Positions 1,218 to 21,889 of a stretch of 55,188 bases of DNA are shown piece by piece. The notes below the pieces were generated by a model that had not been told where the DNA came from, searched no databases, and saw only the letters and a list, made by a program, of their open reading frames with translations. Source of the stretch: Thermotogaceae bacterium (GTDB taxonomy: Bacteria; Thermotogota; Thermotogae; B21-G9; HyVt-16); NCBI GenBank assembly GCA_029981435.1, contig JARRBB010000006.1:1-55188 (forward strand). Reading direction: 5' to 3'. A program made the position numbers and the translations under genes. How positions within the stretch are numbered: position 1 is the stretch's first letter; each line of letters opens with the position of its first letter.

Positions 1218-2534
1218 ATGGAGTTGCTCAATATCAAGAAAATCGAATATTCTGGAAAAGAATCGAAAAATCCACTGAGCTTTAAATACTACAATCCTGA
1301 AGAGGAAATTTTTGGCACAAAAATGTCAGAACATCTGAGGTTTTCAGTTGCTTTCTGGCATACCTTCAACGCTAACGGTACCGATATGTTTGGTATTGGA
1401 ACAATGATAAGACCTTGGGACAAATATACAGATCCCATGGACAAAGCAAAGGTTAAAATTGATGCATTGATTGAGTTTACCGAAAAACTTGGTGTGAAAT
1501 ATTTCTGTTTCCATGACAGAGACATAGCACCAGAAGGGAAAACTCTCAGAGAAACTAACAAAAACCTCGATTTGATAGTGGACTATTTGAAACAAAGAAT
1601 GAAAGAAAGTGGTTTAAAACTACTCTGGGGAACTGCTAATCTTTTTTCAAATCCACGCTTTGTTCATGGTGCTGCAACTAGTTGCAACGCTGATGTTTTT
1701 GCTTATGCTGCAGCTCAGGTAAAAAAAGCTATTGAAATTACTAAAGAACTTGATGGGGAAAACTATGTTTTTTGGGGCGGAAGAGAAGGCTATGAAACCC
1801 TTTTGAATACAGATATGGAACTTGAACTGGACAATTTAGCACGATTCTTAAGCTTGGCAGTTGATTATGCTAAAAAAATTGGCTTTAAAGGTCAATTTTT
1901 GATAGAACCAAAACCAATGGAACCCACAAAACATCAATATGATTTCGATAGTGCTCATGTACTAGCCTTTTTAAGAAGATACGGACTTGAAAAGCACTTC
2001 AAATTAAATATTGAAGCGAATCATGCTACTCTTGCTGGACATACATTTAATCATGAACTTAGATATGCAAGAATAAATGGGGTTCTTGGAAGCATAGATG
2101 CAAATCAGGGAGATTTGTTCTTAGGCTGGGATACTGATCAATTTCCAACCGATATTTATGCAACAACCCTCGCAATGTATGAGATACTTAAAAATGGAGG
2201 ATTAGCTCCCGGAGGAATAAACTTTGATGCAAAAGTCAGGAGAGCTTCATTTGAACTTGAAGACCTGTTCATAGGACATATAGCAGGAATGGATACTTTC
2301 GCACTTGGTTTGAAAGCAGCAGCTAAACTTATTGAAGATGGCTTAATAGATGAATTTATTGAAGAAAGATATTCAAGTTATAAAGAGGGAATCGGCAAAA
2401 AGATAATTGATGGGGACACAACATTTGAGGAACTTGAAGAATACATAATTGATAAAGAAGAAATACAGAACAAGTCTGGGAAACAGGAATATCTTGAAAT
2501 CATCGTAAATCAAGCGATAATTTCCGTGATTTAA
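1218..2534 (+). CDS. xylA: Xylose isomerase
   Basis: 438 aa. N-terminus [27 protein letters not shown]…FWHTF and the HxGD-type motifs are typical of class II XylA. GGGG RBS upstream. Confidence 0.93.
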
Positions 2535-2593
2535 AATTTTATCAGGTCATACTTAATTAGTATGGCCTGATAGATTCAAAAGGAGAATGTATA

Positions 2594-3073
2594 TTGAAAG
2601 TATTCGATGGTTTAATTCTTATACTTATAATACCTTTATTTGCTTTTTCAATAACTTATGAGTTGTTGTCTAACGATCCCAGGGTTGCTTTTCTTGAAAT
2701 GGTTAATGAATACAGAATAGTGAAAGGATTACAACCATTCGAATGCCTTTTTAACGAAGTACCTCAGGCTTTTACAGATTTTCAAGCCAATATAGGCATC
2801 TTCCTTGGACATATAGGTTTTTCAAAAAGAGTAGAGAGAATAAAAAAGTTGATAGAAGAAAATTACGGAATGAAGGTTTCAAAAATAAGTTTTGCTGAAA
2901 ACGTAGCTTTCTTAAAAAGTGATGATATTGACTTAAAAATGGCTTTTGAAAGCTTTTTAAAGAGTAAAAGACATAGAGAAAATATCTTGTCATCCAGGTA
3001 CAGATGGACAGCAATAGGAATTACTAAAAAAAGTGATAGATTGTACATTTGTCAGATTTTTTGGAACTATTAA
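2594..3073 (+). CDS. CAP/SCP (YkwD-like) domain protein with N-terminal signal or TM segment
   Basis: 159 aa, hydrophobic N-terminus. C-terminal HRENILSSRYRWTAIGI resembles the YkwD/CAP signature GHRENIL…G(I/V)G. Confidence 0.55.
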   Translation: MKVFDGLILILIIPLFAFSITYELLSNDPRVAFLEMVNEYRIVKGLQPFECLFNEVPQAFTDFQANIGIFLGHIGFSKRVERIKKLIEENYGMKVSKISFAENVAFLKSDDIDLKMAFESFLKSKRHRENILSSRYRWTAIGITKKSDRLYICQIFWNY

Positions 3074-3076
3074 TAT

Positions 3077-3102
3077 TAAAATCCCCCATACGGGGGATTT
3101 TA
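3077..3102. terminator. Bidirectional intrinsic terminator between convergent genes
   Basis: aaaATCCCCCatacGGGGGATtttt: 7-bp GC stem flanked by A and T runs. Confidence 0.75.
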
Positions 3103-3105
3103 ATA

Positions 3106-3918
3106 TTATTGGAATTTCAAACCTATGACGGCTTCTGGTACTACCACATTGAAAGTAAAGGATTCGGTTATGAAAAATTTCAATTTTCTTCCTTCACGGT
3201 CTTCATAACCGATAGATAAATCTTGTCCTAATATTAGTTTGAAATTATCGTCAGCTTTTGAGATCAAAACAGCATCTTCAAGACGAGGAGAAGGTACAAC
3301 CCTTCCACCATTGAGTAAGTCTTCAATCCTTTTATTCAATGGATATCCAGTGCTTTTGGATAAAAGAGTTGCCCACTTCTCGGTATTTATTACAAGATGG
3401 AAAGGACCTTTTATACCATCTTCTGAGAACTTGGCAATAGACTTCAAGATACTTTGAACAAATTTTTCTTCTTCAAGTGAAGAATCGATACTTCTTTTCT
3501 CAGCGAATTTCAACAAACCGGTTATTCCTGCTTTATCGCACCCATAGAAAATAACTTTATCCTCAAACTCTGCTACTTTTGCAGCTGCTTCTTCCAATGA
3601 GGAAAGATCTATATTTTCTTTGCCTCTTTCAACATTATCAAGTTCCCAGATATCTAAAACGAAGGATACTCTAATCTCTATCAAAGGCAAAGATTTTCTC
3701 AATCCCCATTTTACTCTGTCGCCTTCATCAGATAGAATTTGCGTCTCACCTATCGGATGAGCCGAATATTTCCAGCCATAAGGTCCTTCTATTTCAATTA
3801 AACGTCTTCCATACAATTGTGTTGAAAAAATTTCAACAGCTCTTTTATCGATTTCTTCCCATGCTCTAACAGTTATAGGAGCTTTTTCTCTTTTTAAAAA
3901 GTTCACATTATTCACCAC
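3106..3918 (-). CDS. Encapsulin nanocompartment shell protein (family 1, linocin-M18-like, HK97 fold)
   Basis: 270 aa. Colinear, high-identity match to the T. maritima encapsulin sequence as I recall it (…LYGRR…VEGPYGW.Y.AHP.GE…WGLRKSLPLIE.R..F.LD.WELDN.ERGK…GQDLSIGYEDRE…). Confidence 0.93.
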   Translation of the reverse strand: MVNNVNFLKREKAPITVRAWEEIDKRAVEIFSTQLYGRRLIEIEGPYGWKYSAHPIGETQILSDEGDRVKWGLRKSLPLIEIRVSFVLDIWELDNVERGKENIDLSSLEEAAAKVAEFEDKVIFYGCDKAGITGLLKFAEKRSIDSSLEEEKFVQSILKSIAKFSEDGIKGPFHLVINTEKWATLLSKSTGYPLNKRIEDLLNGGRVVPSPRLEDAVLISKADDNFKLILGQDLSIGYEDREGRKLKFFITESFTFNVVVPEAVIGLKFQ

Positions 3919-4261
3919 CTTTCAAATTCCTTATTTTAAGGTCACCGGTTGATTTATTTCCTTCTTCTGACACTATCGCTTCTTCGATATCTGTTATCAG
4001 CTCTTCTGTGAAAAGATATGTTCGTAATGCCTCATCCCAACCAGGCATGTTTCTTCTAAGCCATTCAAGAAGCATTGCAGCATGTTCCATTTCTTCATTT
4101 CTATTATGTTCAACTATTTTTCTAACAGTTTCATCTTTTGTGGATGCCAATCTCTGATGATACCAGTTAACAGCTTCTATTTCTTCCTTAAGACTTTCCA
4201 GTATTCTACTATAGTCACGATCTATTGCTGATAATTCTTCTGCCGGTTCATGATAAGCCAT
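3908..4261 (-). CDS. Ferritin-like protein (Flp) encapsulin cargo with C-terminal targeting peptide
   Basis: 117 aa. Two E..H diiron motifs (EAVNWYHQR, NEEMEHAAML). C-terminal GDLKIRNLKGGE matches the encapsulin cargo-loading peptide consensus (GSLxIGSLKG). 11-nt overlap with the shell gene. Confidence 0.88.
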   Translation of the reverse strand: MAYHEPAEELSAIDRDYSRILESLKEEIEAVNWYHQRLASTKDETVRKIVEHNRNEEMEHAAMLLEWLRRNMPGWDEALRTYLFTEELITDIEEAIVSEEGNKSTGDLKIRNLKGGE

Positions 4262-6330: not shown

Positions 6331-6366
6331 GAAAAACCTGAGGACTAATTTCCTCAGGTTTTTTCT
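6331..6366. terminator. Bidirectional terminator hairpin
   Basis: aaaaaCCTGAGGActaattTCCTCAGGttttttc; overlaps the stop codon of the minus-strand permease gene. Confidence 0.7.
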
Positions 6367-7286
6367 TCCCTTGAATAAGGTACCCCCAGCGCACTTGGTG
6401 CCCCCATGCGTTTTCTAAAATTTTCATTGAAACTGAAAATTATCATTATAATCAATGTAGTCAAATAAGGAAGCATCATTAACAAATTTGGAGAGATGTT
6501 TATTTTTCCTTCGGCCTGTAAACGCAACTGCATCGCTATTATTCCACCAAACAAATAAGAACCTATCAAAGCCCTATAAGGATTCCACATAGAGAATATA
6601 ACGAGTGCTATTGCTATCCATCCCCTCCCAGCACTCATATTCTCTATCCACATAGATGTATATGCAAGTGAAAGATAAGCACCACCTGCTGCTGTTAGAG
6701 CCCCACCTGTGATTGTCGCAAGGTAACGTGTCAGAAAAACATTTATTCCGGCTGAATCTGCAGCTGAAGGTTCTTCACCAACTGCTCTTAGATTCATACC
6801 AATCTTCGTTTTAAAAATAAAATATGCTATTCCTATAACGAGTATGTAACTGATATAAACTAACACATCATGTGAAAATAAAACTTTTCCAATTAAAGGT
6901 ATTTTGGATAAAAATGGAATTTCAATTGGTAAAAACTTCGGTGCTACTTTACCTATGTAATTTCGTCCAAGCATTCCAGACAATCCTGTTCCAAGCATAG
7001 TCAGTGCAAGTCCACTGACCGTTTGATTAGCTTTTAAGGTTATAGTCATGAATGCATGTATCAAGGAAAAAACTGCGCCTGCAATTATGGCTAAAATAAA
7101 TGCAAGATATATATTTTGAAAAATATACGCTGCCATGAATCCAAATATAGCTCCAATAAGCATTAAACCTTCTAATCCAAGATTTAATACACCACTTCTC
7201 TCTGTTATTATTTCACCGAGTGTTGCAAAAAGCAAGGGAGTACCAGATCTAATAGCTGCAGATAGTATATTTTCAAATACCTCCAT
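6354..7286 (-). CDS. Nucleoside (BMP-type) ABC transporter permease (YufQ/NupQ-like)
   Basis: 310 aa multi-TM protein, typical BMP-family ABC permease. Last gene of the riboswitch-controlled operon. Confidence 0.8.
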   Translation of the reverse strand: MEVFENILSAAIRSGTPLLFATLGEIITERSGVLNLGLEGLMLIGAIFGFMAAYIFQNIYLAFILAIIAGAVFSLIHAFMTITLKANQTVSGLALTMLGTGLSGMLGRNYIGKVAPKFLPIEIPFLSKIPLIGKVLFSHDVLVYISYILVIGIAYFIFKTKIGMNLRAVGEEPSAADSAGINVFLTRYLATITGGALTAAGGAYLSLAYTSMWIENMSAGRGWIAIALVIFSMWNPYRALIGSYLFGGIIAMQLRLQAEGKINISPNLLMMLPYLTTLIIMIIFSFNENFRKRMGAPSALGVPYSREEKT

Positions 7287-8390
7287 TCAGTTCACCACCG
7301 ATTTAGTATCATCTTTTATAAATCTCAATCTGTATTTAAAAATAGTTTCTGAAGCTAAAAGACTGAAAAGTATCAACCCTTGAAGAGCACTTATCATAGA
7401 TATCGGGAATTTCATAACAATCTGTAATTGTTCCCCGCCAACTAAAAGGCCTCCAAAGAAAAAACCTACGATAATCGCACCGATTGGATTAAGTCTCGCA
7501 AGCCATGCAACTATTATCGCGGTATATCCATATCCGGTTGAAAAACCATGTTGAAGTCTGTGTTGAACTCCCAAAACTTGTATGGAACCAGCTAAACCTG
7601 CTAAGGCACCACTGAACATCATTGCAAGGATCAAATTCTTTTCAATAGAAATCCCTGAGTATCTCGCAGCCTTCGGATTATCACCTATGATTTTTAGTTC
7701 AAATCCCCATTGTGTCTTTTTCATAATAAAGTAAACTATAAAAACTAAGATCAAAACTATTATGATTCCTATGTGTATCCCGGTGTTACCTATTTCCGGT
7801 AACCAGGAACTCTTGGGAAAAATAGCAGTAAGAGGGAAGTTAAAACCTTTCGGATCTTTCCAAGGACCGTATATTAAATAATTCAACCAATTTATGGCTA
7901 TATAATTAAGCATGAGTGTAACAACTATCTCATCAAGCTTTAAAAATGCTTTGAGTACCGCAGGAATCAGAGCCCATAAAGCACCTGCAAGAGTTCCCAT
8001 TATTAAAAGAAGTGTTATCATTATCATACTGTTGTCCAAATCTTTGAAAACAAAAAGAGCACCCCACGTCGTTGCCATAGCACCGAGGTATAACTGTCCC
8101 TCGGCTCCTATATTCCAAACTTTCATCTTAAAAACGACCAAAAGCCCAAGAGCAATTAAAGTTAAAGGCACCATTTTTAATATGGTATCAATCAGCCCAA
8201 GTTCAGGGTGAAATGGCCATGTGAACAATTCTCTGTATGCTTCGACAACATTGGAAAAGTCACCAGTGTTCAACCAAATGAACACTCCCATTATCACTAT
8301 CGAAAATATCAAAGATATCATTGATATAAAAAAATTTTCGTATTTGAAATGATCTAATCTTCTTTCTAATTTAAGCTTCAACTGCAACAC
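7287..8390 (-). CDS. Nucleoside (BMP-type) ABC transporter permease (YufP/NupP-like)
   Basis: 367 aa multi-TM. Translationally coupled to the flanking genes. Confidence 0.8.
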   Translation of the reverse strand: MLQLKLKLERRLDHFKYENFFISMISLIFSIVIMGVFIWLNTGDFSNVVEAYRELFTWPFHPELGLIDTILKMVPLTLIALGLLVVFKMKVWNIGAEGQLYLGAMATTWGALFVFKDLDNSMIMITLLLIMGTLAGALWALIPAVLKAFLKLDEIVVTLMLNYIAINWLNYLIYGPWKDPKGFNFPLTAIFPKSSWLPEIGNTGIHIGIIIVLILVFIVYFIMKKTQWGFELKIIGDNPKAARYSGISIEKNLILAMMFSGALAGLAGSIQVLGVQHRLQHGFSTGYGYTAIIVAWLARLNPIGAIIVGFFFGGLLVGGEQLQIVMKFPISMISALQGLILFSLLASETIFKYRLRFIKDDTKSVVN

Positions 8391-9870
8391 CAGCCATCAT
8401 TAAACCTAATTCATTAACTTTACTTTCTTCTGGTTCAACATACCCCATTATTTTTCCTTCAAATATTATCGCCACTCTGTCAGATATAGCAAAAACTTCG
8501 TCAAGATCGCCGGCAATCAAAAGAATAGCGACACCTTTATTTCGTGCCTTTATCAATGAATTATAAACAAACTCCATTGCCTTGACATCCAATCCTCTTG
8601 TTGGATGCTCAACTATTATCAATTTAGGTGAAAGCTCAAATTCTCTTGCAAGTACAACTTTCTGCATATTGCCCCCTGAAAGGAACTTAATCGGTTGTTC
8701 TTCACTTCTGGTAACGATTGAATACTTTTTGATTAATTCTCTGGAGTTCTTGAGCATTTTTTTCTGATTTAGAATTCTACTTTTATTCTTTTGTCTTATA
8801 AACAAGTTTTCAACTACCGACAAATTCGGACAGGTTGCCGTTTCTTTTCTATCTTGAGGCACATAAGCAATACCAAGGGACAACCTTTTTCTAACACTTG
8901 CATTCGTAATATCAAAACCACAAAACTTTATTTTTCCTTTTTCTACCTTCCTAAGGCCAACTATACTCTCTGCAAGCTCTCTTTGACCATTTCCAGCTAC
9001 TCCTGCTATTCCGAGAATTTCGCCCTCTTTTATTATCAGGTTCAGACCTTTAACAGCTAAGATTCCCTTGTCGTTTCTGACTTCAAGGTTTTCTATATTT
9101 AAAATTTCTTTCCCAGGAATATTATCTGCTTTTTGAATATTGAAAGTAAAATCTTTTCCAACCATCATACGTGCCAATCTGTTTTCATTAAATTCTTCTT
9201 TATTCAAAGTCCCAATTATTTTCCCATTTTTTAAAACTGTCACTCTATCAGAAATTTTAACAACTTCCTTCAATTTGTGGCTTATGAAGATAATCCCTTT
9301 TCCATTTTCTTTCATCAGTTCTATTGCTTTAAACAACGATTCAGACTCCTGAGGAGTCAGAACTGCCGTTGGCTCATCAAAGATTATTATCTTTGCTTCT
9401 TCATACAGAACTTTCAAAATTTCTACCTTTTGTTTTTCGCTAACTGACAACTGCCAGATTTTTGCGTTTGGGTCTATATTCATGTTATAAAGATCTGATA
9501 ATTCTTTTATTTTTCTTATAACTTTCTTCAGATTAACCCTAAAGTGTCCGGATTTTTTCATGCCAAGTGCTATATTTTCAGCAACACTAAAAGAAGGAAC
9601 CAAAGTGAAGTGTTGCTGCACCATACCTATACCATGTTCGATTGCTGAAGCTGGGGAAGTAATGTTGACTTTTTTGCCTTCAACAAAGATCTCACCATGG
9701 TCATGTCTGTATAAACCAAAAACAATATTCATCAAAGTTGTTTTGCCTGCACCATTCTCTCCAAGAAGAGCGTGAACTTCCCCAGATTTCAAATCAAAAT
9801 TAACGTCATCAAGTGCCAACACGTTACCAGGAAATCTTTTAGTTATATTTTTTAATTCAAGTAAATACAA
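8371..9870 (-). CDS. ABC transporter ATP-binding protein with duplicated NBDs (YufO/NupO-like)
   Basis: 499 aa. Two Walker A motifs (GENGAGKTT; GVAGNGQ), LSGG signatures, Walker B. Confidence 0.9.
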   Translation of the reverse strand: MYLLELKNITKRFPGNVLALDDVNFDLKSGEVHALLGENGAGKTTLMNIVFGLYRHDHGEIFVEGKKVNITSPASAIEHGIGMVQQHFTLVPSFSVAENIALGMKKSGHFRVNLKKVIRKIKELSDLYNMNIDPNAKIWQLSVSEKQKVEILKVLYEEAKIIIFDEPTAVLTPQESESLFKAIELMKENGKGIIFISHKLKEVVKISDRVTVLKNGKIIGTLNKEEFNENRLARMMVGKDFTFNIQKADNIPGKEILNIENLEVRNDKGILAVKGLNLIIKEGEILGIAGVAGNGQRELAESIVGLRKVEKGKIKFCGFDITNASVRKRLSLGIAYVPQDRKETATCPNLSVVENLFIRQKNKSRILNQKKMLKNSRELIKKYSIVTRSEEQPIKFLSGGNMQKVVLAREFELSPKLIIVEHPTRGLDVKAMEFVYNSLIKARNKGVAILLIAGDLDEVFAISDRVAIIFEGKIMGYVEPEESKVNELGLMMAGVAVEA

Positions 9871-9926
9871 GTTAAATCAACCTCCTATAATCGGGAGGAC
9901 ACTTGTCCTCCCGAAAATAATAATAA

Positions 9927-11003
9927 TTACTCAGAAGCAGATTCTGGTATTTTCCCTTCAACGTTATCAACAAACCAATTCATTGATAAGAGCTCTTCAT
10001 CGGATAGTTTTTTACCTTTCGAAACTTTTAAATTACCAGATTGATCATATATAGGACCTTGGAATGGGTCAAAAGTACCATTTATAATAGCTTTTTTAAA
10101 GATATCAACAATTGTTCTAACATTTTCAGGCACCATAGGCCCAAACGGCGCAAGGTCAACAATACCTTCTTTCATTCCAAGCCAAACGTTACCATGTTTG
10201 TAAGTGCCTTCTATGATCTCTTGCAAAACATCAGCATAAAACGCTCCCCAATTCCAAATTGGCGCAGTCAAATGAGCTTCAGGAGCGAATTCTGACATAT
10301 CTGTGTTGTATCCAACACTGTATGCTCCTCTTTCCTGGGCAGCTTGTTGAGGGGCTGGAGAATCCTGATGCTGTGCTATAACATCTGCACCGGCATCAAG
10401 TAAACTCAAAGCAGCTTCTTTTTCTGTTGCAGGATCGTACCATGTGTTGGTCCAAACAACTTTGACTTTTGCTTTTGGATTAACAAGCTTAACACCGAGT
10501 GCAAATGCATTTATTCCTCTTATTACTTCTGGAATTGGGTGTGCTGCAACGTAACCGATGATATTAGATTTTGTCATCATACCAGCAACTATTCCACTTA
10601 AAAAACGTGGTTGATACATTCGGCCAAAATAAGCTGTCATATTTTCAGCGGTTTTATAGCCTGAACAATGGAAGAAATGTATCTGTGGAAATTCTTGTGC
10701 AGCCATTAAAGTAGCATCCATATATCCAAAACTTGTGGTGAAAATAACATCGTACTTTCTCTTTGCAAGGCTTTTAATGGTATTGTAGGACTCCATACCT
10801 TCTGGAACACTTTCAATGTAAGTAGTTACTATTTTATTTCCCAGAACTTTTTCAGCATAAAGTCTTCCCTGGTCGTGAGCATATGTCCATCCAGCATCAC
10901 CAACAGGACCAATATAAATGAAAGCGACTTTCAAAGGACTGGCAGCAAGTAAACTTACTACTAAAATAAGTGCTACAAAAAGCATCAAGAAAATTTTTCT
11001 CAT
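9927..11003 (-). CDS. BMP-family (PnrA/Med-like) ABC substrate-binding lipoprotein, probable purine nucleoside binder
   Basis: The ORF-track start is a TTG that lies inside the RBS. The true start is the ATG (MRKIFLMLFVALILVVSLLAA…) 7 nt after GAGGAGGG. Signal peptide plus BMP-fold motifs. Confidence 0.85.
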   Translation of the reverse strand: MRKIFLMLFVALILVVSLLAASPLKVAFIYIGPVGDAGWTYAHDQGRLYAEKVLGNKIVTTYIESVPEGMESYNTIKSLAKRKYDVIFTTSFGYMDATLMAAQEFPQIHFFHCSGYKTAENMTAYFGRMYQPRFLSGIVAGMMTKSNIIGYVAAHPIPEVIRGINAFALGVKLVNPKAKVKVVWTNTWYDPATEKEAALSLLDAGADVIAQHQDSPAPQQAAQERGAYSVGYNTDMSEFAPEAHLTAPIWNWGAFYADVLQEIIEGTYKHGNVWLGMKEGIVDLAPFGPMVPENVRTIVDIFKKAIINGTFDPFQGPIYDQSGNLKVSKGKKLSDEELLSMNWFVDNVEGKIPESASE

Positions 11004-11056
11004 TATCCATCCCTCCTCAAAAAAATAAATCCCACCCAAGAAGCGGGGTGGGATAA
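11004..11056 (-). terminator. Guanine-riboswitch expression-platform terminator (rho-independent) immediately upstream of the SBP RBS
   Basis: Minus-strand RNA: AUCCCACCC-cgcuucuu-GGGUGGGAU then UUAUUUUUUU. The 5' arm plus loop (CACCCCGCUUCUUG) is complementary to the P1 3' strand plus flank (CAAGAAGCUGGGUG), giving an antiterminator. Confidence 0.8.
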
Positions 11057-11085
11057 TTTATTCCAAATTAAACTTCCACACCCAG

Positions 11086-11158
11086 CTTCTTGTAGTCAAA
11101 CGGTTTACGGCCGTTTGGTAGAAACTCCCAAGCCATATTCTTGGGATTATACAAGAAG
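11086..11158 (-). ncRNA. Purine riboswitch aptamer (G-box, guanine-type with C at the specificity position)
   Basis: Minus-strand RNA: CUUCUUGUA-UAAU-CCCAAGAAUAUGGCUUGGG-AGUUUCUACC-AAACGGCCGUAAACCGUUU-GACUA-CAAGAAG. It has P1, P2 with L2 AAUAUGG, J2/3 AGUUUCUACC, P3 with L3 CCGUAAA, and J3/1 GACUA (C implies guanine). Near-identical to xpt/add aptamers in the conserved positions. Confidence 0.9.
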
Positions 11159-11233
11159 CCGGTACATATTCACTTTCAACTTTATTTTATACCATAAGTA
11201 TCTCGTGAAAAATAAAATTTTGGAACAAAAATG

Positions 11234-12526
11234 TTAAAGTCCAAAACGTTCATAAATTTTGTCAACATTTCTCAAGTAGTAACCGATATCGAACAGTTCA
11301 GAAAGTTCATCTTTGTTAACAACATCCAATATTTCAGGATCATTTTCAAGTATCGATTTGAAATCAACTTCTTCTTCCCAGGATCTTAGAGCATTTTTCT
11401 GTACAAGCAAATAAGCCTGTTCTCTGCTGAGACCTTTTTCGATAAGCTTCAGCATAACTCTTTGTGAGAAAACAAGATTGTAGGAAACCATAAAGTTCCT
11501 TTTCATACGTTCAATGTTCACCACAAGATTTTGAATCAAATAATCTGCTTTTACAAGCATATAATAAATCAAATTCGTAGCATCAGGCAATACAACCCTC
11601 TCAACAGAAGAATGCGATATATCCCTTTCGTGCCATAATGCGATATTCTCCATAGCAGCTTGTGAGTAAGATCGAAGTAATCTCGCCATCCCACACAATC
11701 GTTCGCACAATATCGGATTTTTTTTATGAGGCATTGCACTTGAACCTCTCTGCCCTTTTTTAAAAGGCTCTTGCAATTCCAGGACTTCTGTTCTTTGAAG
11801 TAATCTAATCTCCAATGCTATCCTTTCAATACCAGCAGCTACGAGAGACAAAACATTTAAAAAATAAGCTATTCTATCCCTTGGAACAATCTGCGTAGAG
11901 ACTTTTTCTATTTCTAAACCAAGAATCTCAGAGACGATTTTCTCAACCTCGGGTGATATATTTGCATAATTACCAACTGCTCCGCTGATTTTCATAACCG
12001 CAACCTCATTCAACGCATTTTTTAATCTTCGGTGATTTCTAAGAGCTTCAGAATACCATGATAAAACTTTAAGACCAAAAGAAGTTGGTTCTGCATGAAC
12101 ACCATGAGTTCTTCCTACTATAGGAGTATATTTGTGTTCAATTGCCAACTTTCTAAGTGAGTCGATCAGTTTTTCAAGAGCCTCAATTATCAGTTGAACT
12201 GCTTTTTTCAAAGTTAACCCAAGGGCTGTATCTATAACATCGGATGAAGTCAATCCCAAGTGAAAATAATTTGCTTCTTCACCCATATTTTCAGTAATAG
12301 ACTTTATAAATGCTATAACGTCATGGTCAACAACCTTTTCTATTTCTTTTATCCTATCAACATTAACAATAGCTTTTTTCTTTATTTCCTGCGAAGTGCC
12401 GGCAGGAGCTATTCCAAGTTTTTCATAAGCCTCTACAACGGCAATTTCAACTTCAAGCCACCTTTTGAATTTTTCATTTTCACTCCATAATTCTTTCATC
12501 GGAGATAGTGTATATCTCTCTATCAA
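11234..12526 (-). CDS. purB: Adenylosuccinate lyase
   Basis: 430 aa. N-terminus MIERYTLSPMKELWSE…, fumarate-lyase signature region (GSSAMPHKKNP). Confidence 0.93.
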   Translation of the reverse strand: MIERYTLSPMKELWSENEKFKRWLEVEIAVVEAYEKLGIAPAGTSQEIKKKAIVNVDRIKEIEKVVDHDVIAFIKSITENMGEEANYFHLGLTSSDVIDTALGLTLKKAVQLIIEALEKLIDSLRKLAIEHKYTPIVGRTHGVHAEPTSFGLKVLSWYSEALRNHRRLKNALNEVAVMKISGAVGNYANISPEVEKIVSEILGLEIEKVSTQIVPRDRIAYFLNVLSLVAAGIERIALEIRLLQRTEVLELQEPFKKGQRGSSAMPHKKNPILCERLCGMARLLRSYSQAAMENIALWHERDISHSSVERVVLPDATNLIYYMLVKADYLIQNLVVNIERMKRNFMVSYNLVFSQRVMLKLIEKGLSREQAYLLVQKNALRSWEEEVDFKSILENDPEILDVVNKDELSELFDIGYYLRNVDKIYERFGL

Positions 12527-15065: not shown

Positions 15066-16424
15066 TCAACCTGAAAAATTCTCCAGGAAAGTTTTATAAG
15101 CCAGATATGTTTCGAGTACATCTGCTTTAGAAACAAGTTCATATGGTGAATGCATCCCTAAAACAGCTGGTCCAACATCCAAAACCCATGAGCCAAGTTC
15201 CGCAAAAAACTTTGCTACAGTCCCCCCGCCACCTTGATCGACCTTTCCAAGTTCTCCCACTTGCCATGAAACATCATTTTCAATGAAGAGGTTTCTTATT
15301 TTTCCGAAAAACTCCGCACTCGCTTCACTTGTTCCACTTTTTCCTCTTACTCCTGTGTATTTAACAAGAACAGTTCCATAGCCAAGTTTTGGTGCATTTA
15401 AAGGTTCCATAACTGTTTTATACTTTGGATCTAAACCAGCTGCAACATCTCCTGACAAAACCGCGGATTTTTCTATCAGATCCTCAACATCCAGGTTCGG
15501 GTTATTGTGTTCAACAATTTTCTTAAGGACTCTAATCCAGAAACGTTCTTTTGCACCAGTATTTCCATCACTTCCTATTTCTTCTCTATCAAACAAAAGA
15601 ACTATTGAACTCCTCTTCTGAGATTTCGAGTCAATAATAGCCCTGAACGCCGTATAAGCACATACTCTGTCATCATGACCATATCCTGCTATAAGTGAAC
15701 TGTCAAGCCCAGCACCTCTTGTTTCAAAAGCTGGAACCAGCGAAAGATCAGCTCCTATAAGATCTTTTTCAGTTACCCCATATTTTTCATTCAAAAGCTT
15801 TAAGACGTAAAGCTTGACAGCTTCTTTTTCTTCATTTTCAAGTGGAATGGTTCCTGCGATTGGTGATAAATCCTCTCCAAGGAACTTTTCTGATACTTTT
15901 TTGTCTTCTTTATCGAGATGTGGTAATAAATCTGAAATTACCAGTACAGGTTCTCCCGGTGCATCACCAATAGATACTTCTACTAAACTTCCATCTGTTT
16001 TTAAGACAACACCTTTTAAGCACAAAGGGATGTTAAACCATTGATATTTTTTTATGCCGCCGTAATAATGAGTTTTCAGTAGGAGAATACCATCGTCTTC
16101 AAATAAAAATCTTGGTTTTAAATCTATTCTTGGAGAATCTATATGAGCCGTGATTATATTAAAACCGTCTTCCAAATTATCCGTGATTTTGAAAAAAGCA
16201 ACTGTTTTATCTTTGTTAATTACATAGAATCTATCAGAAAATATATCATCAGAAAAACCGAGTTTTTTTGCTACAGACACAAGGTTTTTCACCGTTAATC
16301 TTTCTGTTTTAGAATTGGTCAAAAACCCTGAATATTCACTGCTGAATTTCTCTATCTCTTCTCTCGAACGCTTTTTCCAGACAGATTCAGATTTGAAAAG
16401 CAAATTCTCGGAATTATTACTCAT
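15066..16424 (-). CDS. M18-family aminopeptidase (aspartyl aminopeptidase-like)
   Basis: 452 aa. ITAHIDSP motif, and the M18-type HSPYE metal-ligand motif near the C-terminus. Confidence 0.85.
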   Translation of the reverse strand: MSNNSENLLFKSESVWKKRSREEIEKFSSEYSGFLTNSKTERLTVKNLVSVAKKLGFSDDIFSDRFYVINKDKTVAFFKITDNLEDGFNIITAHIDSPRIDLKPRFLFEDDGILLLKTHYYGGIKKYQWFNIPLCLKGVVLKTDGSLVEVSIGDAPGEPVLVISDLLPHLDKEDKKVSEKFLGEDLSPIAGTIPLENEEKEAVKLYVLKLLNEKYGVTEKDLIGADLSLVPAFETRGAGLDSSLIAGYGHDDRVCAYTAFRAIIDSKSQKRSSIVLLFDREEIGSDGNTGAKERFWIRVLKKIVEHNNPNLDVEDLIEKSAVLSGDVAAGLDPKYKTVMEPLNAPKLGYGTVLVKYTGVRGKSGTSEASAEFFGKIRNLFIENDVSWQVGELGKVDQGGGGTVAKFFAELGSWVLDVGPAVLGMHSPYELVSKADVLETYLAYKTFLENFSG

Positions 16425-16445
16425 TGGGCACTCCTCCTTTAAATA

Positions 16446-17432
16446 TTATTCAACAGAACTGAATTTTTTAGAAAGAATTATATTAGCTATGGCACTACCT
16501 ATCAATATTATTCCCAGAGTTCCAACCTGCCAGATTGAACTTATTCCAGCAAGCTGGAGACCATTGTATAGAGCTGTTATAACAACTATCGCCATCAGCG
16601 TTCCAAGAATACTACCTTCTCCTCCCATTATATTCGTTCCTCCCAAAACTGCTATCGTTATTGCCTGCAGGTTTAATCCCGCCCCAAGATCTGGACGAGC
16701 ACTCGCAATTCTTGAAGTCATTATTAAAGCAGCGAGTCCAGCAAGAAAACCTCCGATTACATAAACAGTGAATTTAACCCTTCTAACAGGAACACTTGAG
16801 AATCTGGCAACTACTTCACTGTTTCCTGTAGCGACGAGATATCTTCCAAAAGTTGTCTTGGATAGAACAAAATGAAGCATCAGAGCTAATGGAATAAATA
16901 TAGCTATTACCTGAAATGGAATGTTGAAATATGTTTGCTGACCTATAAAGTAATAACCGTAAGGAAAGTTGGAAACAGGCATAGGATTTCCCCACTTGTC
17001 AACGGCAATCAAAAGTGCAAGTGAATCGTAAACATACATGGTAGATAAAGTTACTATCAGAGGAGGAATTCGTAGAAAACTCACAAAAAAACCATTTACA
17101 ACCCCACACAATCCGCCTGTTATTATGCCTAAAATCGATGCAATGACTATATTAACTCCTAATCTACCTGCGAGCACACCTATTACCATCGCACTCAGGC
17201 TCAATATAGAACCTATCGATAAATCTATTCCTCCACCACCAGAAATTATTATGAGAGTTTCCGCGAAAGCCAAAAGCCCTATTTCCACACCATACTTTGT
17301 CATATTCAAAACATTGTATATGGTTGAAAACTCAGGAATTATGAATGAAAAAACTACGAACATTCCTATCAGAAAAACAAACAGGAAAAAGGATCTATTG
17401 ACAGCCATTAATTTCAGGAATTTTTTCATCAT
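16446..17432 (-). CDS. Sugar ABC transporter permease (RbsC/branched-chain-type)
   Basis: 328 aa multi-TM. 4-nt overlap with the upstream permease. Confidence 0.85.
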   Translation of the reverse strand: MMKKFLKLMAVNRSFFLFVFLIGMFVVFSFIIPEFSTIYNVLNMTKYGVEIGLLAFAETLIIISGGGGIDLSIGSILSLSAMVIGVLAGRLGVNIVIASILGIITGGLCGVVNGFFVSFLRIPPLIVTLSTMYVYDSLALLIAVDKWGNPMPVSNFPYGYYFIGQQTYFNIPFQVIAIFIPLALMLHFVLSKTTFGRYLVATGNSEVVARFSSVPVRRVKFTVYVIGGFLAGLAALIMTSRIASARPDLGAGLNLQAITIAVLGGTNIMGGEGSILGTLMAIVVITALYNGLQLAGISSIWQVGTLGIILIGSAIANIILSKKFSSVE

Positions 17433-18370
17433 TCTTCACCCCTGTTTTTAATAACATCTATGGCTACAGACCCAAGAATCAGTACTCCTATTATCAATCC
17501 TTCTGTAAGAGCCGGAACGTTCAGAAGTATCAAACCATTTGAAAGAACTGCAACTAACAACGAGCCAAGTATACTTCCAACGATAGTACCCTTTCCACCA
17601 AGAATACTTGTTCCACCTAAAACAGTTGCAGCAATAACCTGAAGTTCAAAGTTATTTCCAGTGTTCGTTTGAACTATACCAGCTCTTCCAACAACTATAG
17701 CACCTGCAATCCCGTACATTAATCCTGCAAGAGCATAGACAAAAAAAAGAATGCGCTTCGTATCAACTCCTGACACCCTTGCAGCCTCTAAGCTGTTTCC
17801 AACAGCATATATATATCTTCCCAGTGGTCTGTATCTCATAAAATAGCTGAAATACGCCACCAAAATTATTGTTAACCATATTGGAACAGGGACATTTAAA
17901 ATTTTTCCTAACCCCATCCATCTAACAGCACCTGGAAGAGAAGCAATCCACCTGCCTCCCAAAAAAGTATATGCCAATGACCGCAATAAACTCATCATCC
18001 CGAGTGTAACTATTATTGGTGGAATACCCAACAACGCTATGAACGAAGCATTAACACTTCCAAGTGCCAGTCCAACGAGTATCCCCAGTATTATAGAAAG
18101 CCAAGCAGGGAAGCCATTGGTAGCTGCCTTTCCGAGGGTAACAGCTACAATACCAAGTATCGAACCAGCTGAAACATCTATTCCACCGGTTATTATAATC
18201 ATCGTCATTCCGATGCTCGCAACACCAATACTTGAAACTTGTAACAAAATATTTTTGATATTATTTGTGGTAAGAAAGCGCTCGGAAGAAAGGCTGAAGA
18301 ACACTATCAGACCTATCATAACTAATCCAACAGTTAACTCACGACTTTTTATGATTTTTTTTAATTCCAT
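17429..18370 (-). CDS. Sugar ABC transporter permease (RbsC-like)
   Basis: 313 aa multi-TM. Confidence 0.85.
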   Translation of the reverse strand: MELKKIIKSRELTVGLVMIGLIVFFSLSSERFLTTNNIKNILLQVSSIGVASIGMTMIIITGGIDVSAGSILGIVAVTLGKAATNGFPAWLSIILGILVGLALGSVNASFIALLGIPPIIVTLGMMSLLRSLAYTFLGGRWIASLPGAVRWMGLGKILNVPVPIWLTIILVAYFSYFMRYRPLGRYIYAVGNSLEAARVSGVDTKRILFFVYALAGLMYGIAGAIVVGRAGIVQTNTGNNFELQVIAATVLGGTSILGGKGTIVGSILGSLLVAVLSNGLILLNVPALTEGLIIGVLILGSVAIDVIKNRGEE

Positions 18371-18386
18371 TTTTATCCTCCTTTCT

Positions 18387-19901
18387 TCAATCTCTGGAAT
18401 ATACCATTCTGGAACCAGTTGCAGCGTTCAAAAGGTTGGTTGGTGTTATAGAATCTTTCTTATCAAATCTTCCAGTTATTCTCCCTTCATGCATGACAAT
18501 CACTCTATCTGATAATTTGATTATCTCTGGTAATTCTGAAGAAACAATTATTATCGAAATCCCACTCTCTGCAAGCCTAAGTATTTCATTATGTATTTGT
18601 GATTTTACCGCAACATCAACTCCTCTTGTAGGTTCATCAAGTATCAAAATTTTTGGTGAAGTAGCCAGCCATTTAGAAAGTAAAACTTTCTGTTGATTAC
18701 CACCACTTAAATTATTTACAAGTGTATAGATAGAAGGTGCTTTTATTTGAAACCACTTTAAATAGTTTTCGGATATTTCTCTTTCTTTATCTTTATCAAC
18801 CATTCCGAAAAATTTACTAAGTTGATCTATTATGGGTATAGTTATATTGAAGCTTATTGCCAAAGCTCTAAAAAGCCCCTGAGCTCCCCTATCTTCGGGA
18901 ACATAAGCTATCCCTATATTCATAGCACTGGCAGGATCCTTGATATTAACCTCTTTGCTATTGATCTTTATTTTTCCTGAGTCAGGTTTTATTAAACCAA
19001 ATATCGTTTGCATTACCTCACTTCTACCAGCACCGACAAGTCCGGAAAAACCAAGTATCTCACCTTTATAAAGCTTAAAACTGATATCTTGATAAAGCCC
19101 TTTTTTATTCAAATTTTCAACTTCAAGAACGACTTCTTCGTACTTTGGAGGTTTTCTATCTATCTCTTCTATAACAGCTCGTCCAGCCATGAGTTCAATC
19201 ATTTTTTCACGATTTATTTCATTCATATTGAAAGTTCCCATCACCTGGCCATCACGCATTATGGTTACTCTGTCAGCTATTTGAGGCAACTCCTCTAGTC
19301 TATGACTTATATATATTATTCCTACTTCTTTCTCCTTTAATTTTTTTATTATCGAAAACAAACGCTGAGTTTCGTGTTCAGTAAGAATAGCCGTAGGTTC
19401 ATCAAAGATAATGACTTTTGCATTGTAATTTAGAGCCTTTGCAATAAGTGCAAGTTGTTGTAAACCGGTACTGAGACTTCCCATCGGTTCATCTATAAAG
19501 TATGGATCTATATCCAGTGACTTCAGAAGTTCTCTGGTTACATCTCTCTCTTTTTTCCAATCCACATCACCATTTCTTTTCTTTATTTCATTGCCAATAA
19601 ATATGTTCTCTACAACCGATAAATGTTTATAAACAAGTGGTTCTTGGTAAACTGCAACTATACCCAATTCATGAGCTTCGCGTGGAGAATCCAACACCAC
19701 ATTTTTACCAAAATATTCTATTTCACCACTATCAGGTTGTAAAACACCCGTTAGAATTTTTATCAATGTGGATTTGCCTGCACCATTTTCTCCAACAAGT
19801 GCATGGACTTCACCAGCCAAAAGCTCAAAATCAACACCTCTAAGTGCCTTAACACCACCAAAATTTTTCACAATTTTTTTGGCTTTAAGAACGGAATCCA
19901 A
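18387..19901 (-). CDS. Sugar ABC transporter ATP-binding protein, tandem NBDs (RbsA/MglA-like)
   Basis: Two Walker A motifs (GENGAGKST; GLVGAGRS). Real start is the TTG (LDSVLKAKKIVKNFGG) 6 nt after AAGGAGGAG; the 5' extension in the ORF track is read-through of the upstream hairpin. Confidence 0.88.
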   Translation of the reverse strand: MDSVLKAKKIVKNFGGVKALRGVDFELLAGEVHALVGENGAGKSTLIKILTGVLQPDSGEIEYFGKNVVLDSPREAHELGIVAVYQEPLVYKHLSVVENIFIGNEIKKRNGDVDWKKERDVTRELLKSLDIDPYFIDEPMGSLSTGLQQLALIAKALNYNAKVIIFDEPTAILTEHETQRLFSIIKKLKEKEVGIIYISHRLEELPQIADRVTIMRDGQVMGTFNMNEINREKMIELMAGRAVIEEIDRKPPKYEEVVLEVENLNKKGLYQDISFKLYKGEILGFSGLVGAGRSEVMQTIFGLIKPDSGKIKINSKEVNIKDPASAMNIGIAYVPEDRGAQGLFRALAISFNITIPIIDQLSKFFGMVDKDKEREISENYLKWFQIKAPSIYTLVNNLSGGNQQKVLLSKWLATSPKILILDEPTRGVDVAVKSQIHNEILRLAESGISIIIVSSELPEIIKLSDRVIVMHEGRITGRFDKKDSITPTNLLNAATGSRMVYSRD

Positions 19902-19918
19902 AGGAATCTCCTCCTTTA

Positions 19919-19947
19919 TAAAGAAGGGGCATAGAATGCCCCTTCTT
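19919..19947 (-). terminator. Intercistronic stem-loop between the SBP and ATPase genes (partial terminator/mRNA stabiliser)
   Basis: Perfect 13-bp inverted repeat AAAGAAGGGGCAT-aga-ATGCCCCTTCTTT, immediately followed by the RBS of the ATPase gene. Confidence 0.6.
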
Positions 19948-19976
19948 TGTAAAAGTATGGAATAATTGTACAATTC

Positions 19977-20954: not shown

Positions 20955-20985
20955 GAAAATCCCCCCTTTTTAAAGTATGGCGCTC

Positions 20986-21855: not shown

Positions 21856-21889
21856 CCCTATCCCCTCCAAATTACAGAATTCATTTTGA

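What the first reader, a model, noticed from the sequence alone, without database searches (positions are those of the whole stretch)
10991..11165. Guanine riboswitch (OFF-type, transcriptional) controlling a BMP-family nucleoside ABC importer operon
On the minus strand there is a textbook purine aptamer:
- P1 CUUCUUGUA/UACAAGAAG
- P2-L2 CCCAAG-AAUAUGG-CUUGGG
- J2/3 AGUUUCUACC
- P3-L3 AAACGG-CCGUAAA-CCGUUU
- J3/1 GACUA, with C at the ligand-specifying position, so guanine/hypoxanthine-type

About 30 nt downstream is a 9-bp GC terminator plus U7 that ends 10 nt before the GAGGAGGG RBS of the PnrA/BMP-like binding protein.

The terminator 5' arm plus loop (CACCCCGCUUCUUG) is 13/14 complementary to the P1 3' strand plus flank (CAAGAAGCUGGGUG). 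Ligand-stabilised P1 should therefore free the terminator, giving an OFF switch. That would tie purine-nucleoside uptake (four-gene ABC operon 6354-11003) to guanine levels, right next to purB.
Basis: partly seen in the sequence, partly recalled or inferred. Interest (0 to 1): 0.55.

Follow-up and report, generated by a model that had tools for sequence, protein, structure and literature searches.

The report
Guanine riboswitch before a purine importer

Summary
Rfam's purine-riboswitch model (RF00167) matches window 11174-11073 (minus strand) at 88.2 bits (threshold 37). It is the only Rfam hit in the 55 kb. All junction and loop nucleotides are canonical, and the specificity position is C (window 11095), so it is guanine/hypoxanthine class. 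A 9-bp GC-rich hairpin plus U-tract (11054-11019) follows. The P1 3' strand can instead pair with the terminator's 5' arm and loop (13/14; 0 of 20,000 shuffles).

This aptamer/antiterminator/terminator layout recurs in two other Thermotogaceae sequences. One is the orthologous purB-BMP locus. The other sits upstream of purC. Both carry compensatory changes. The downstream four genes are a BMP-family ABC importer.

The binding protein is 50% identical to AtzT (guanine Kd 110 nM) and 46% to Brucella 3S99 (adenine-bound), and far from nucleoside binders. In Clostridia its homologues lie in riboswitch-xpt-BMP-ABC operons. So "nucleoside importer" is probably wrong and "purine-base importer" more likely.

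Verdict: a new member of a well-known riboswitch class, working as a transcriptional OFF switch. Interest is low to moderate. Ligand binding, termination and transporter substrate are all untested.

The parts
11184..11211 (-). Candidate sigma-70-type promoter (TTTTCA, 16 nt, TAAAAT) between the purB stop codon and the aptamer
   Evidence: Consensus scan, 9 of 12 matches. The ATAAAAT -10-like block is invariant between the window and the orthologous locus L082. Weak evidence only. Read-through from purB is not excluded, because no terminator was found after purB.
11073..11174 (-). Purine riboswitch aptamer, full RF00167 match
   Evidence: 88.2 bits against gathering score 37, E 9.3e-15, model 1-102. 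99.6 bits with the CM built here.
11082..11162 (-). Aptamer core with extended 13-bp P1 (5' strand 11162-11150, 3' strand 11094-11082); P2 11146-11126; P3 11117-11097
   Evidence: MFE fold. Covariation over 10 distinct homologues: 94% of cells paired, 20 of 22 pairs changed on both sides, 0 of 500 shuffles as high.
11095..11095 (-). Ligand-specifying nucleotide (C74 equivalent) in J3/1
   Evidence: Read from the cmscan alignment ...UUUGACUACAAG. It is C in all 14 related aptamers.
11037..11092 (-). Antiterminator hairpin: lower stem CAAGAAGC/GCUUCUUG, middle stem GGGUG/CACCC, variable upper hairpin
   Evidence: Folds at -26.5 kcal/mol in isolation. The same three-tier hairpin forms in L082, L083 and L097 with a different upper-stem sequence. 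13/14 complementarity, 0 of 20,000 shuffles.
11019..11054 (-). Intrinsic terminator: 9-bp stem AUCCCACCC/GGGUGGGAU (11054-11029), 8-nt loop, then UUUAUUUUUUU
   Evidence: Terminator scan. -16.3 kcal/mol. Conserved in L082/83 through a register shift and in L097 through an A-U to G-U change.
11011..11018 (-). Ribosome-binding site GAGGAGGG, 7 nt before the ATG at 11003
   Evidence: Direct reading.
9927..11003 (-). BMP-family substrate-binding protein (358 aa) of the AtzT/3S99 purine-base-binding clade
   Evidence: PF02608, 233 bits. 6PI5 E 4e-110 and 3S99 E 1e-105. Pocket residues identical to 3S99.
8371..9870 (-). ABC transporter ATPase with two ATP-binding cassettes (499 aa)
   Evidence: PF00005, two stretches. 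The best NCBIfam matches are below the curated cut-offs.
7287..8390 (-). ABC permease 1 (BPD_transp_2)
   Evidence: PF02653, 155 bits.
6354..7286 (-). ABC permease 2 (BPD_transp_2)
   Evidence: PF02653, 123 bits.
11234..12526 (-). purB (adenylosuccinate lyase), upstream neighbour on the same strand. It is context, not part of the switch.
   Evidence: TIGR00928, 518 bits against cut-off 326. The purB-riboswitch-BMP order is conserved in L082-84.

Best explanation
This is a class I guanine riboswitch (RF00167, C at the specificity position) in the leader of a four-gene BMP-type ABC importer operon of an uncultured Thermotogaceae bacterium. It acts as a transcriptional OFF switch.

Proposed mechanism:
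1. When guanine (or hypoxanthine/xanthine) fills the three-way junction, P1 is locked and holds the strand CAAGAAGC.
2. The downstream segment AUCCCACCC...GGGUGGGAU then folds into a GC-rich hairpin followed by a U-tract.
3. RNA polymerase terminates just before the ribosome-binding site.
4. When purine is scarce, P1 opens. Its 3' strand plus GCUGGGUG pairs with CACCCCGCUUCUUG, which is the terminator's 5' arm and loop. This builds a long antiterminator hairpin, and the importer genes are transcribed.

The importer's binding protein belongs to the purine-base-binding branch of the BMP family. The loop is therefore most likely feedback control of purine-base salvage uptake.

Shown here: aptamer identity, mutually exclusive helices, and their conservation and covariation. 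Inferred: ligand, termination, direction of regulation, and transported substrate.
For: - Aptamer: 88.2 bits against 37, every conserved junction and loop nucleotide present, 8-nt J2/3 with no insertion, C at 11095. Helices covary across 10 distinct homologues, 20 of 22 pairs.
- Platform: terminator-like hairpin plus U-run. Antiterminator complementarity 13/14, 0 of 20,000 shuffles.
- Energetics: the P1 state (-47.5 kcal/mol) and the antiterminator state (-47.0) are near-isoenergetic when the RNA has been made up to 11037, and remain so at 65 C (-20.5 against -19.3). Ligand binding energy could therefore decide the outcome.
- Conservation: the same layout is in the orthologous locus L082-84 and in L097 upstream of purC. 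Changes that keep pairing:
  - A-U to G-U in the lower antiterminator stem.
  - The U.C mismatch becomes a G-U pair in L097.
  - The terminator is kept by a register shift in L082 and by A-U to G-U in L097.
  - The upper antiterminator hairpin has a wholly different sequence in each lineage.
- Regulon: purC and the BMP operon are typical guanine-riboswitch targets. Both copies map to the same two MAGs.
- Transporter: PF02608, two-cassette ATPase and two permeases. Closest solved structures are AtzT with guanine and 3S99 with adenine (PMC6834077). Pocket identical to 3S99.
- Independent association: a riboswitch lies upstream of homologous transporters in 7 Clostridia genomes, 6 of them with xpt between the riboswitch and the binding-protein gene.
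Against: - There is no experimental evidence of any kind.
- With the full terminator transcribed, the P1-plus-terminator state is favoured even without ligand (-54.0 against -51.2 kcal/mol at 37 C, and more so at 55-65 C). The 13-bp P1 is unusually long. The switch must work kinetically or may be leaky toward OFF.
- The promoter is only a 9/12 consensus match. The transcript may start at purB.
- Most Thermotogota relatives of the transporter (Kosmotoga, Mesotoga and others) lack the riboswitch, so the association is lineage-specific.
- AtzT was not tested with nucleosides (PMC6834077), so nucleoside transport is not excluded.
Confidence: 0.85

Rival explanations
1. The aptamer is real, but the operon imports purine nucleosides. 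Guanine derived from imported guanosine would feed back on a PnrA/NupNOPQ-like system.
For: The binding protein is in Pfam Bmp, 'PnrA-like'. The public record names the ATPase 'general nucleoside transport system ATP-binding protein'. Characterised BMP systems such as PnrA and BmpD bind nucleosides (PMC7093131). Nucleosides were not in the AtzT binding panel (PMC6834077).
Against: Similarity to the solved non-purine-base BMP proteins (pneumococcal lipoprotein, TpN38(b), BmpA) is remote, E 8e-9 to 8e-6. It is E 1e-105 to 1e-110 to the two base-liganded structures. All nine pocket positions equal 3S99. In AtzT every heteroatom of guanine is contacted and GTP does not bind (PMC6834077). Clostridial homologues are co-operonic with xpt, which uses bases.
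Confidence: 0.25
2. The switch acts mainly on translation, or on both levels, rather than by transcription termination.
For: The U-tract abuts the RBS (11019 next to 11018). The MFE fold pairs part of the U-tract with sequence around the RBS and start codon. Translational control is common for riboswitches outside Firmicutes (PMC2258182).
Against: The RBS is not complementary to any aptamer or platform strand. A GC-rich 9-bp hairpin plus U-run is present and conserved in three lineages. The U-tract/RBS pairing is A-U-rich and weak.
Confidence: 0.08
3. The element is a constitutive or nearly constitutive attenuator between purB and the transporter genes. The long 13-bp P1 and strong terminator keep it OFF regardless of ligand.
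For: The P1-plus-terminator state is the MFE without any ligand term at 37, 55 and 65 C. No terminator follows purB, so the element could simply uncouple the two units.
Against: A perfectly conserved ligand pocket and a conserved, covarying antiterminator would not be maintained in a constitutive terminator. At the decision point the two states are within 0.5-1.2 kcal/mol at 37 and 65 C, and 1.9 at 55 C. The third pair of the P1 extension is G-U, C.A or A.G in the three lineages, so the extension is interrupted.
Confidence: 0.05
4. The aptamer's physiological ligand is not guanine but another purine, such as hypoxanthine or xanthine, or a variant ligand such as 2'-deoxyguanosine or 8-oxoguanine.
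For: From established knowledge of the class, guanine-I aptamers also bind hypoxanthine and xanthine. Variants with altered specificity exist within the same fold (PMC9295807, PMC10556655).
Against: Variant classes carry changes or insertions in the junctions (PMC9295807). Here every junction nucleotide matches the RF00167 consensus and J2/3 has no insertion. Hypoxanthine as co-ligand is compatible with the main explanation and is not really a rival.
Confidence: 0.1

Closest known systems
Bacillus subtilis xpt-pbuX guanine riboswitch (guanine-I, RF00167)
   Same: Three-way junction with 7-nt kissing loops, identical junction nucleotides, C at position 74, and a terminator/antiterminator platform that shares the P1 3' strand. 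It is an OFF switch on purine salvage and uptake genes.
   Different: It controls an ABC importer instead of xpt plus an NCS2 permease. P1 can extend to 13 bp. P3 has 7 bp. It sits after purB in a Thermotogaceae genome, whereas published surveys describe the class as mainly in Firmicutes (PMC3766115).
Riboswitch-xpt-BMP-ABC operons of Clostridia found here (Marinisporobacter L003, Wukongibacter L032, Fusibacter L050, Dethiosulfatibacter L054, and others)
   Same: Guanine-type aptamer (C74) upstream of a homologous BMP binding protein (49-59% identity) and ABC ATPase. In most of them a terminator-like hairpin plus U-run follows the aptamer.
   Different: An xpt gene lies between the riboswitch and the transporter. 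The expression-platform sequences are unrelated. The phylum is different.
AtzT (PDB 6PI5) and the Brucella melitensis BMP lipoprotein (PDB 3S99), purine-base-binding proteins
   Same: 50% and 46% identity over the whole mature protein. Stacking aromatics and the Ser, Phe and Glu contacts are conserved. All nine pocket positions are identical to 3S99.
   Different: AtzT has Tyr, Thr, Asn, Asn, Asn where the window protein and 3S99 have Trp, Arg, Gly, His, Asp, so base preference may differ. Neither structure comes with transport data or a riboswitch.
PnrA/TmpC, BmpD and NupNOPQ nucleoside ABC systems
   Same: Same Pfam family (PF02608) and the same operon architecture: binding protein, double-cassette ATPase, two BPD_transp_2 permeases.
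   Different: Sequence similarity is only remote (E 8e-9 or worse). Those proteins bind the ribose moiety (PMC7093131). B. subtilis nupNOPQ is not reported to be riboswitch-controlled (own knowledge).
Adenine riboswitches (add, pbuE/ydhL) and the 2'-dG, xanthine-II, guanine-II and 8-oxoG variants
   Same: Same overall fold and the same Rfam clan.
   Different: Adenine riboswitches have U at position 74 and are usually ON switches. The other variants carry junction substitutions or insertions (PMC9295807). None of these is present here.

Membership tests
Purine riboswitch RF00167, guanine-I class | Covariance-model score above the curated gathering threshold | tested here: met
   88.2 bits against 37, E 9.3e-15, full-length match.
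Purine riboswitch RF00167, guanine-I class | Three-way junction with P1, 7-bp P2 and 7-bp P3, supported by covariation | tested here: met
   MFE fold. 94% of cells paired and 20 of 22 pairs with changes on both sides across 10 distinct sequences; slid controls give 33-43% paired.
Purine riboswitch RF00167, guanine-I class | Conserved 7-nt loops L2 (AAUAUGG) and L3 (CCGUAAA) that form the kissing interaction | tested here: met
   Both loops match the consensus exactly. The tertiary contact itself cannot be tested here.
Purine riboswitch RF00167, guanine-I class | Canonical pocket nucleotides in J1/2 (U22), J2/3 (U47, U51, A52, 8 nt with no insertion) and J3/1 | tested here: met
   UAUAAU, GUUUCUAC and AC are identical to the model consensus. 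Variant classes differ at these positions (PMC9295807).
Purine riboswitch RF00167, guanine-I class | C at position 74 (guanine/hypoxanthine) rather than U (adenine) | tested here: met
   C at window 11095. C in all 14 related aptamers.
Purine riboswitch RF00167, guanine-I class | Selective, high-affinity binding of guanine | not testable with these tools
   Needs in-line probing, ITC or fluorescence assays.
Transcriptional OFF expression platform | Intrinsic terminator downstream, plus an antiterminator that is mutually exclusive with both P1 and the terminator | tested here: met
   Terminator scan. 13/14 complementarity, 0 of 20,000 shuffles. Conserved structure in three lineages.
Transcriptional OFF expression platform | Ligand-dependent termination | not testable with these tools
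   The energy model only shows near-degenerate states at the decision point.
BMP-family ABC importer | PF02608 binding protein followed by a double-cassette ATPase and two BPD_transp_2 permeases | tested here: met
PnrA-type nucleoside-binding BMP proteins | Close similarity to nucleoside-liganded members and a ribose-binding pocket | tested here: not met
   The best similarity to the solved non-purine-base BMP proteins (pneumococcal lipoprotein, TpN38(b), BmpA) is E 8e-9 to 8e-6, against E 1e-110 and 1e-105 to base-liganded AtzT and 3S99. The ribose-contact residues themselves were not mapped.
AtzT/3S99 purine-base-binding BMP clade | Aromatic sandwich (Tyr/Trp and Trp) plus Ser, Phe-backbone and Glu contacts to the base | tested here: met
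   W39, W188, S91, F92 and E159 are conserved. All nine mapped positions equal 3S99 (residues from PMC6834077).
AtzT/3S99 purine-base-binding BMP clade | Measured binding of a free purine base | not testable with these tools
   Needs purified protein.

The most novel reading that the evidence does not exclude
The riboswitch links in two phyla (this Thermotogaceae operon and the Clostridial riboswitch-xpt-BMP-ABC operons) mark the widespread AtzT/3S99 branch of BMP ABC systems as dedicated high-affinity importers of guanine/hypoxanthine base. No paper found here reports transport data for such an importer class, and public annotation calls these systems nucleoside or sugar transporters. In addition, this Thermotogaceae lineage expanded its guanine regulon by copying a whole riboswitch, aptamer plus antiterminator plus terminator, from one operon (purC) to another (BMP), or the reverse.
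Probability: 0.5. Interest if true: 0.4.

Novelty: new member of a known kind. Interest (0 to 1): 0.25.

Why it matters
The riboswitch class, its ligand logic and its terminator/antiterminator mechanism are textbook, so the element itself adds little.

Its modest value lies in annotation. A guanine sensor in front of this operon, the xpt linkage in Clostridia and the AtzT/3S99 homology together give three independent hints. They suggest that a large, widely distributed BMP subfamily imports free purine bases. Public records currently label it 'basic membrane protein' or 'nucleoside' or 'simple sugar' transport.

It also documents the purine riboswitch in Thermotogaceae, with two closely related copies (before purC and before the BMP operon) that share an expression platform. 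That is a clean small example of regulon growth by riboswitch duplication. The long P1 could be of interest for thermostable switch design.

Tried and rejected
- A strict regular expression for the aptamer core found only 4 of the 7 Clostridial instances. It was replaced by Rfam and a purpose-built CM.
- A plain MAFFT alignment of eight 102-nt hits (A4) misplaced P3 indels. It was not used for structure counts.
It returned no Thermotogota genomes and nothing above 63% identity. Close relatives had to be fetched one by one through the look-up of encoding contigs.
- The metagenome DNA-pattern scan, with P1 fixed and P3 free, returned a single locus. Covariation in the expression platform therefore rests on only three lineages.
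- Literature searches for a purine or guanine riboswitch together with BMP or a nucleoside ABC transporter, and for BAB2_0673, returned nothing. Singh & Sengupta 2012 (PMC3499989) is not held. I cannot say whether the gene association or the Thermotogae occurrence has been listed before.
- Adenine, 2'-dG, xanthine-II, guanine-II and 8-oxoG readings were considered and rejected because the junctions are fully canonical (PMC9295807).
- A first conformer comparison that included the U-tract gave spurious pairing of the 5' leader with the U-run. It was redone on stepwise transcripts.
- Structure prediction of the binding protein was judged unnecessary, given sequence matches of E 1e-110 to solved structures.
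Full report

Yes. A scan of the whole 55,188-base window against Rfam 15 gives a single hit above threshold. It is RF00167 (purine riboswitch aptamer) at 11174-11073 on the minus strand, at 88.2 bits against a gathering score of 37, E 9.3e-15. It covers model positions 1-102 with no irregular pairs.

Every upper-case (highly conserved) consensus letter is matched:
- J1/2: UAUAAU
- L2: AAUAUGG
- J2/3: GUUUCUAC, with no insertion
- L3: CCGUAAA
- J3/1: AC, where the C (window 11095) is the nucleotide that pairs with the ligand in the guanine class

The 176-nt leader folds better than all 200 dinucleotide shuffles (z = -3.76), and the MFE structure contains the three-way junction.

**2. The expression platform**

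A consensus scan finds a hairpin of nine pairs (six G-C) with an 8-nt loop at 11054-11029, followed by UUAUUUUUUU. The hairpin ends 10 nt before GAGGAGGG (11018-11011). The ATG is at 11003.

It is not a chance feature: 20,000 shuffles of the 60 nt downstream never exceeded 12/14.

Folding shows that this pairing is the base of a longer antiterminator hairpin with three tiers (-26.5 kcal/mol alone):
- a lower 8-bp stem that uses the P1 3' strand and the terminator loop
- a middle GGGUG/CACCC stem that uses the terminator 5' arm
- an upper hairpin

Stepwise folding gives two near-equal states for the transcript that ends at 11037, before the terminator 3' arm exists. The P1 state is -47.5 kcal/mol and the antiterminator state is -47.0 at 37 C; at 65 C they are -20.5 and -19.3. 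Once the terminator is complete, the P1-plus-terminator state is favoured (-54.0 against -51.2).

This is the pattern expected of a kinetically operated OFF switch, in which ligand binding energy tips a balanced choice. It also means the energy model alone cannot prove ligand dependence.

**3. Genes**

- Downstream on the same strand:
  - a PF02608 (Bmp) binding protein, 11003-9927
  - an ATPase with two ABC cassettes, 9870-8371
  - two BPD_transp_2 permeases, 8390-7287 and 7286-6354
- Upstream on the same strand: purB, 12526-11234 (TIGR00928, 518 bits).
- No terminator follows purB.
- The 59-nt spacer holds only a 9/12 promoter-like match, TTTTCA-16-TAAAAT at 11211-11184. Its -10-like block is conserved in the orthologue.
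- Whether the leader starts there or is read through from purB is open.

**4. Source organism**

The exact proteins of the window occur in NCBI records of a MAG named 'Thermotogaceae bacterium' (MDI3472149-51) and in several metagenome assemblies. There they are annotated as 'basic membrane protein' and 'general nucleoside transport system ATP-binding protein'.

**5. Comparative evidence for the switch**

Relatives of the transporter with 59-87% identical binding proteins were fetched one by one. Only one lineage has RF00167 (86.4 bits): L082-84, with an 86% identical binding protein and the gene order purB-riboswitch-BMP-BMP-ATPase-permease-permease. Kosmotoga pacifica, Mesotoga and five other Thermotogota-like loci have none.

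A metagenome scan with a pattern that fixed the junctions and the P1 3' strand, but left P3 free, found one more locus, L097. There the same aptamer and platform precede purC (SAICAR synthetase).

Across the three lineages:
- P2 shows A-U to G-C and A-U to G-U changes.
- The lower antiterminator stem keeps pairing through A-U to G-U.
- The single U.C mismatch becomes a G-U pair in L097.
- The terminator is kept by a register shift (CCCACCC/GGGUGGG to CCACCCC/GGGGUGG) in L082 and by A-U to G-U in L097.
- The upper antiterminator hairpin has an unrelated sequence in each lineage but still forms a hairpin.

Proteins of L097 and of the L082-type locus carry accession numbers from the same two MAGs (HEW91946/7 with HEW91010; MCD6546305/6 with MCD6546173). 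So one organism most likely has both copies. That step is an inference from accession series and 90% clusters. P3 is identical in the three lineages, whereas it varies freely in Clostridia, which points to recent common descent of the copies.

**6. Wider association**

A genome scan with a profile of the binding protein returned 80 loci at 48-63% identity. A covariance model built from six aptamers found a purine aptamer upstream on the coding strand in seven of them. All seven are Clostridia/Bacillota: L003, L017, L032, L048, L050, L054 and L075. All have C at position 74.

On the 10 distinct sequences, 94% of cells pair and 20 of 22 pairs change on both sides. Slid controls give 33-43% paired.

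In six of the seven, a gene scoring above NCBIfam's cut-off for xanthine phosphoribosyltransferase lies between the riboswitch and the binding-protein gene. This is an ABC-transporter counterpart of the classic xpt-pbuX operon. In most of them a stable hairpin followed by a U-run comes after the aptamer.

**7. What does the transporter carry?**

The closest solved structures are:
- AtzT (6PI5), E 4e-110, 50% identity
- the Brucella melitensis BMP lipoprotein (3S99), E 1e-105, 46% identity

The next hits are far weaker, E 1e-24 and worse. The pneumococcal, Treponema (TpN38(b)) and Borrelia BMP proteins score only E 8e-9 to 8e-6.

AtzT co-purified with guanine. It binds guanine at 110 nM and adenine at 2.5 uM, and does not bind GTP. 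3S99 was deposited with adenine (PMC6834077).

Mapping the AtzT pocket onto the window protein gives:
- Tyr45 to W39
- Ser97 to S91
- Phe98 to F92
- Thr139 to R133
- Glu165 to E159
- Asn169 to G163
- Trp194 to W188
- Asn218 to H212
- Asn220 to D214

All nine positions are identical to 3S99. Together with the xpt linkage, this makes a free purine base the more likely substrate. The label 'nucleoside' is therefore doubtful. It is not disproved, because nucleosides were not in the AtzT panel.

**8. Comparison with what is known**

The element passes every sequence-level membership test for guanine-I riboswitches. It shows none of the junction changes that define the adenine, 2'-dG, xanthine-II, guanine-II or 8-oxoG variants (PMC9295807). 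It works like the B. subtilis xpt switch.

Known guanine-riboswitch targets listed in the papers read here are guaA, pbuG, nupC, xpt-pbuX and the purE operon (PMC5393184, PMC11477304). A BMP-type ABC importer was not mentioned in any paper I could search. A 2013 survey describes the class as ubiquitous in Firmicutes plus one or two proteobacterial lineages (PMC3766115). The most relevant survey (Singh & Sengupta 2012) is not held, so prior listing cannot be excluded.

**9. Verdict**

This is a new member of a very well-known kind. Its features are an unlisted but functionally unsurprising gene association, an occurrence in Thermotogaceae, and a paralogous copy before purC. Interest is low to moderate.

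Noticed in passing
L048:1654-1735 and L054:1535-1618: These two Clostridial aptamers upstream of xpt-BMP score lower (53 and 51 bits). They carry a 2-nt insertion after P3 and G instead of A at the position before C74 (...GUUACAGGCUAC). This could be a specificity variant or just a tolerated indel.
   Followed up: no
L081, L082-84, L089, L091, L093 (genes at about 1800-4080 in each locus); proteins P0003, P0007, P0009, P0010, P0015: Most Thermotogota-like relatives have two tandem BMP binding-protein genes in front of the ATPase, where the window has one. Several database homologues of 555-595 aa have roughly twice the normal length; one possibility is two fused binding domains.
   Followed up: partly
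L088:1-4056: In one 73% identical relative the binding-protein gene starts directly after xanthine-dehydrogenase-type genes (FAD_binding_5/CO_deh_flav_C, Fer2, Ald_Xan_dh_C-MoCoBD). This is another link of the subfamily to purine-base metabolism.
   Followed up: no
L097:9886-10748: An aptamer that differs from the window's at 4 of 81 positions, with a closely similar expression platform, precedes purC in a Thermotogaceae MAG. By accession series that MAG also carries the purB-riboswitch-BMP locus. This suggests duplication of a whole riboswitch within the lineage.
   Followed up: partly
window 11209-11239 (-): The 31 nt that begin at the end of purB (CTTTAACATTTTTGTTCCNAAATTTTATTTT) differ at one position between the window and L082. 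The rest of the spacer up to the aptamer is much less conserved. This may be promoter -35 or UP-element sequence.
   Followed up: partly
window 8371-9870 (-), public record MDI3472149.1: The public annotation 'general nucleoside transport system ATP-binding protein' (JGI: 'simple sugar transport system') is probably over-specific or wrong for this subfamily. The best NCBIfam models (putative B6 ABC transporter components) all score below their cut-offs.
   Followed up: partly
window 3106-3918 (-): An encapsulin shell protein gene (Linocin_M18, 280 bits). Neighbouring cargo genes were not examined.
   Followed up: no
window 15066-21870 (-): A second ABC importer of the same permease family (Peripla_BP_4 sugar-type binding protein, double-cassette ATPase, two BPD_transp_2 permeases). 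It is flanked by a xylose-isomerase-like TIM-barrel gene and an M18 aminopeptidase. No RNA element was detected in front of it.
   Followed up: no
L025:138-302 (-): A tandem glycine riboswitch (52 and 41 bits) lies about 2.2 kb upstream of the BMP homologue in a Bacillota MAG, on the opposite strand. It is unrelated to the finding.
   Followed up: no
L095/L096:517-2247 (-): In Mesotoga the riboswitch-less transporter operon lies next to a divergently oriented 5'-nucleotidase-family gene (5_nucleotid_C) and a ferritin gene.
   Followed up: no
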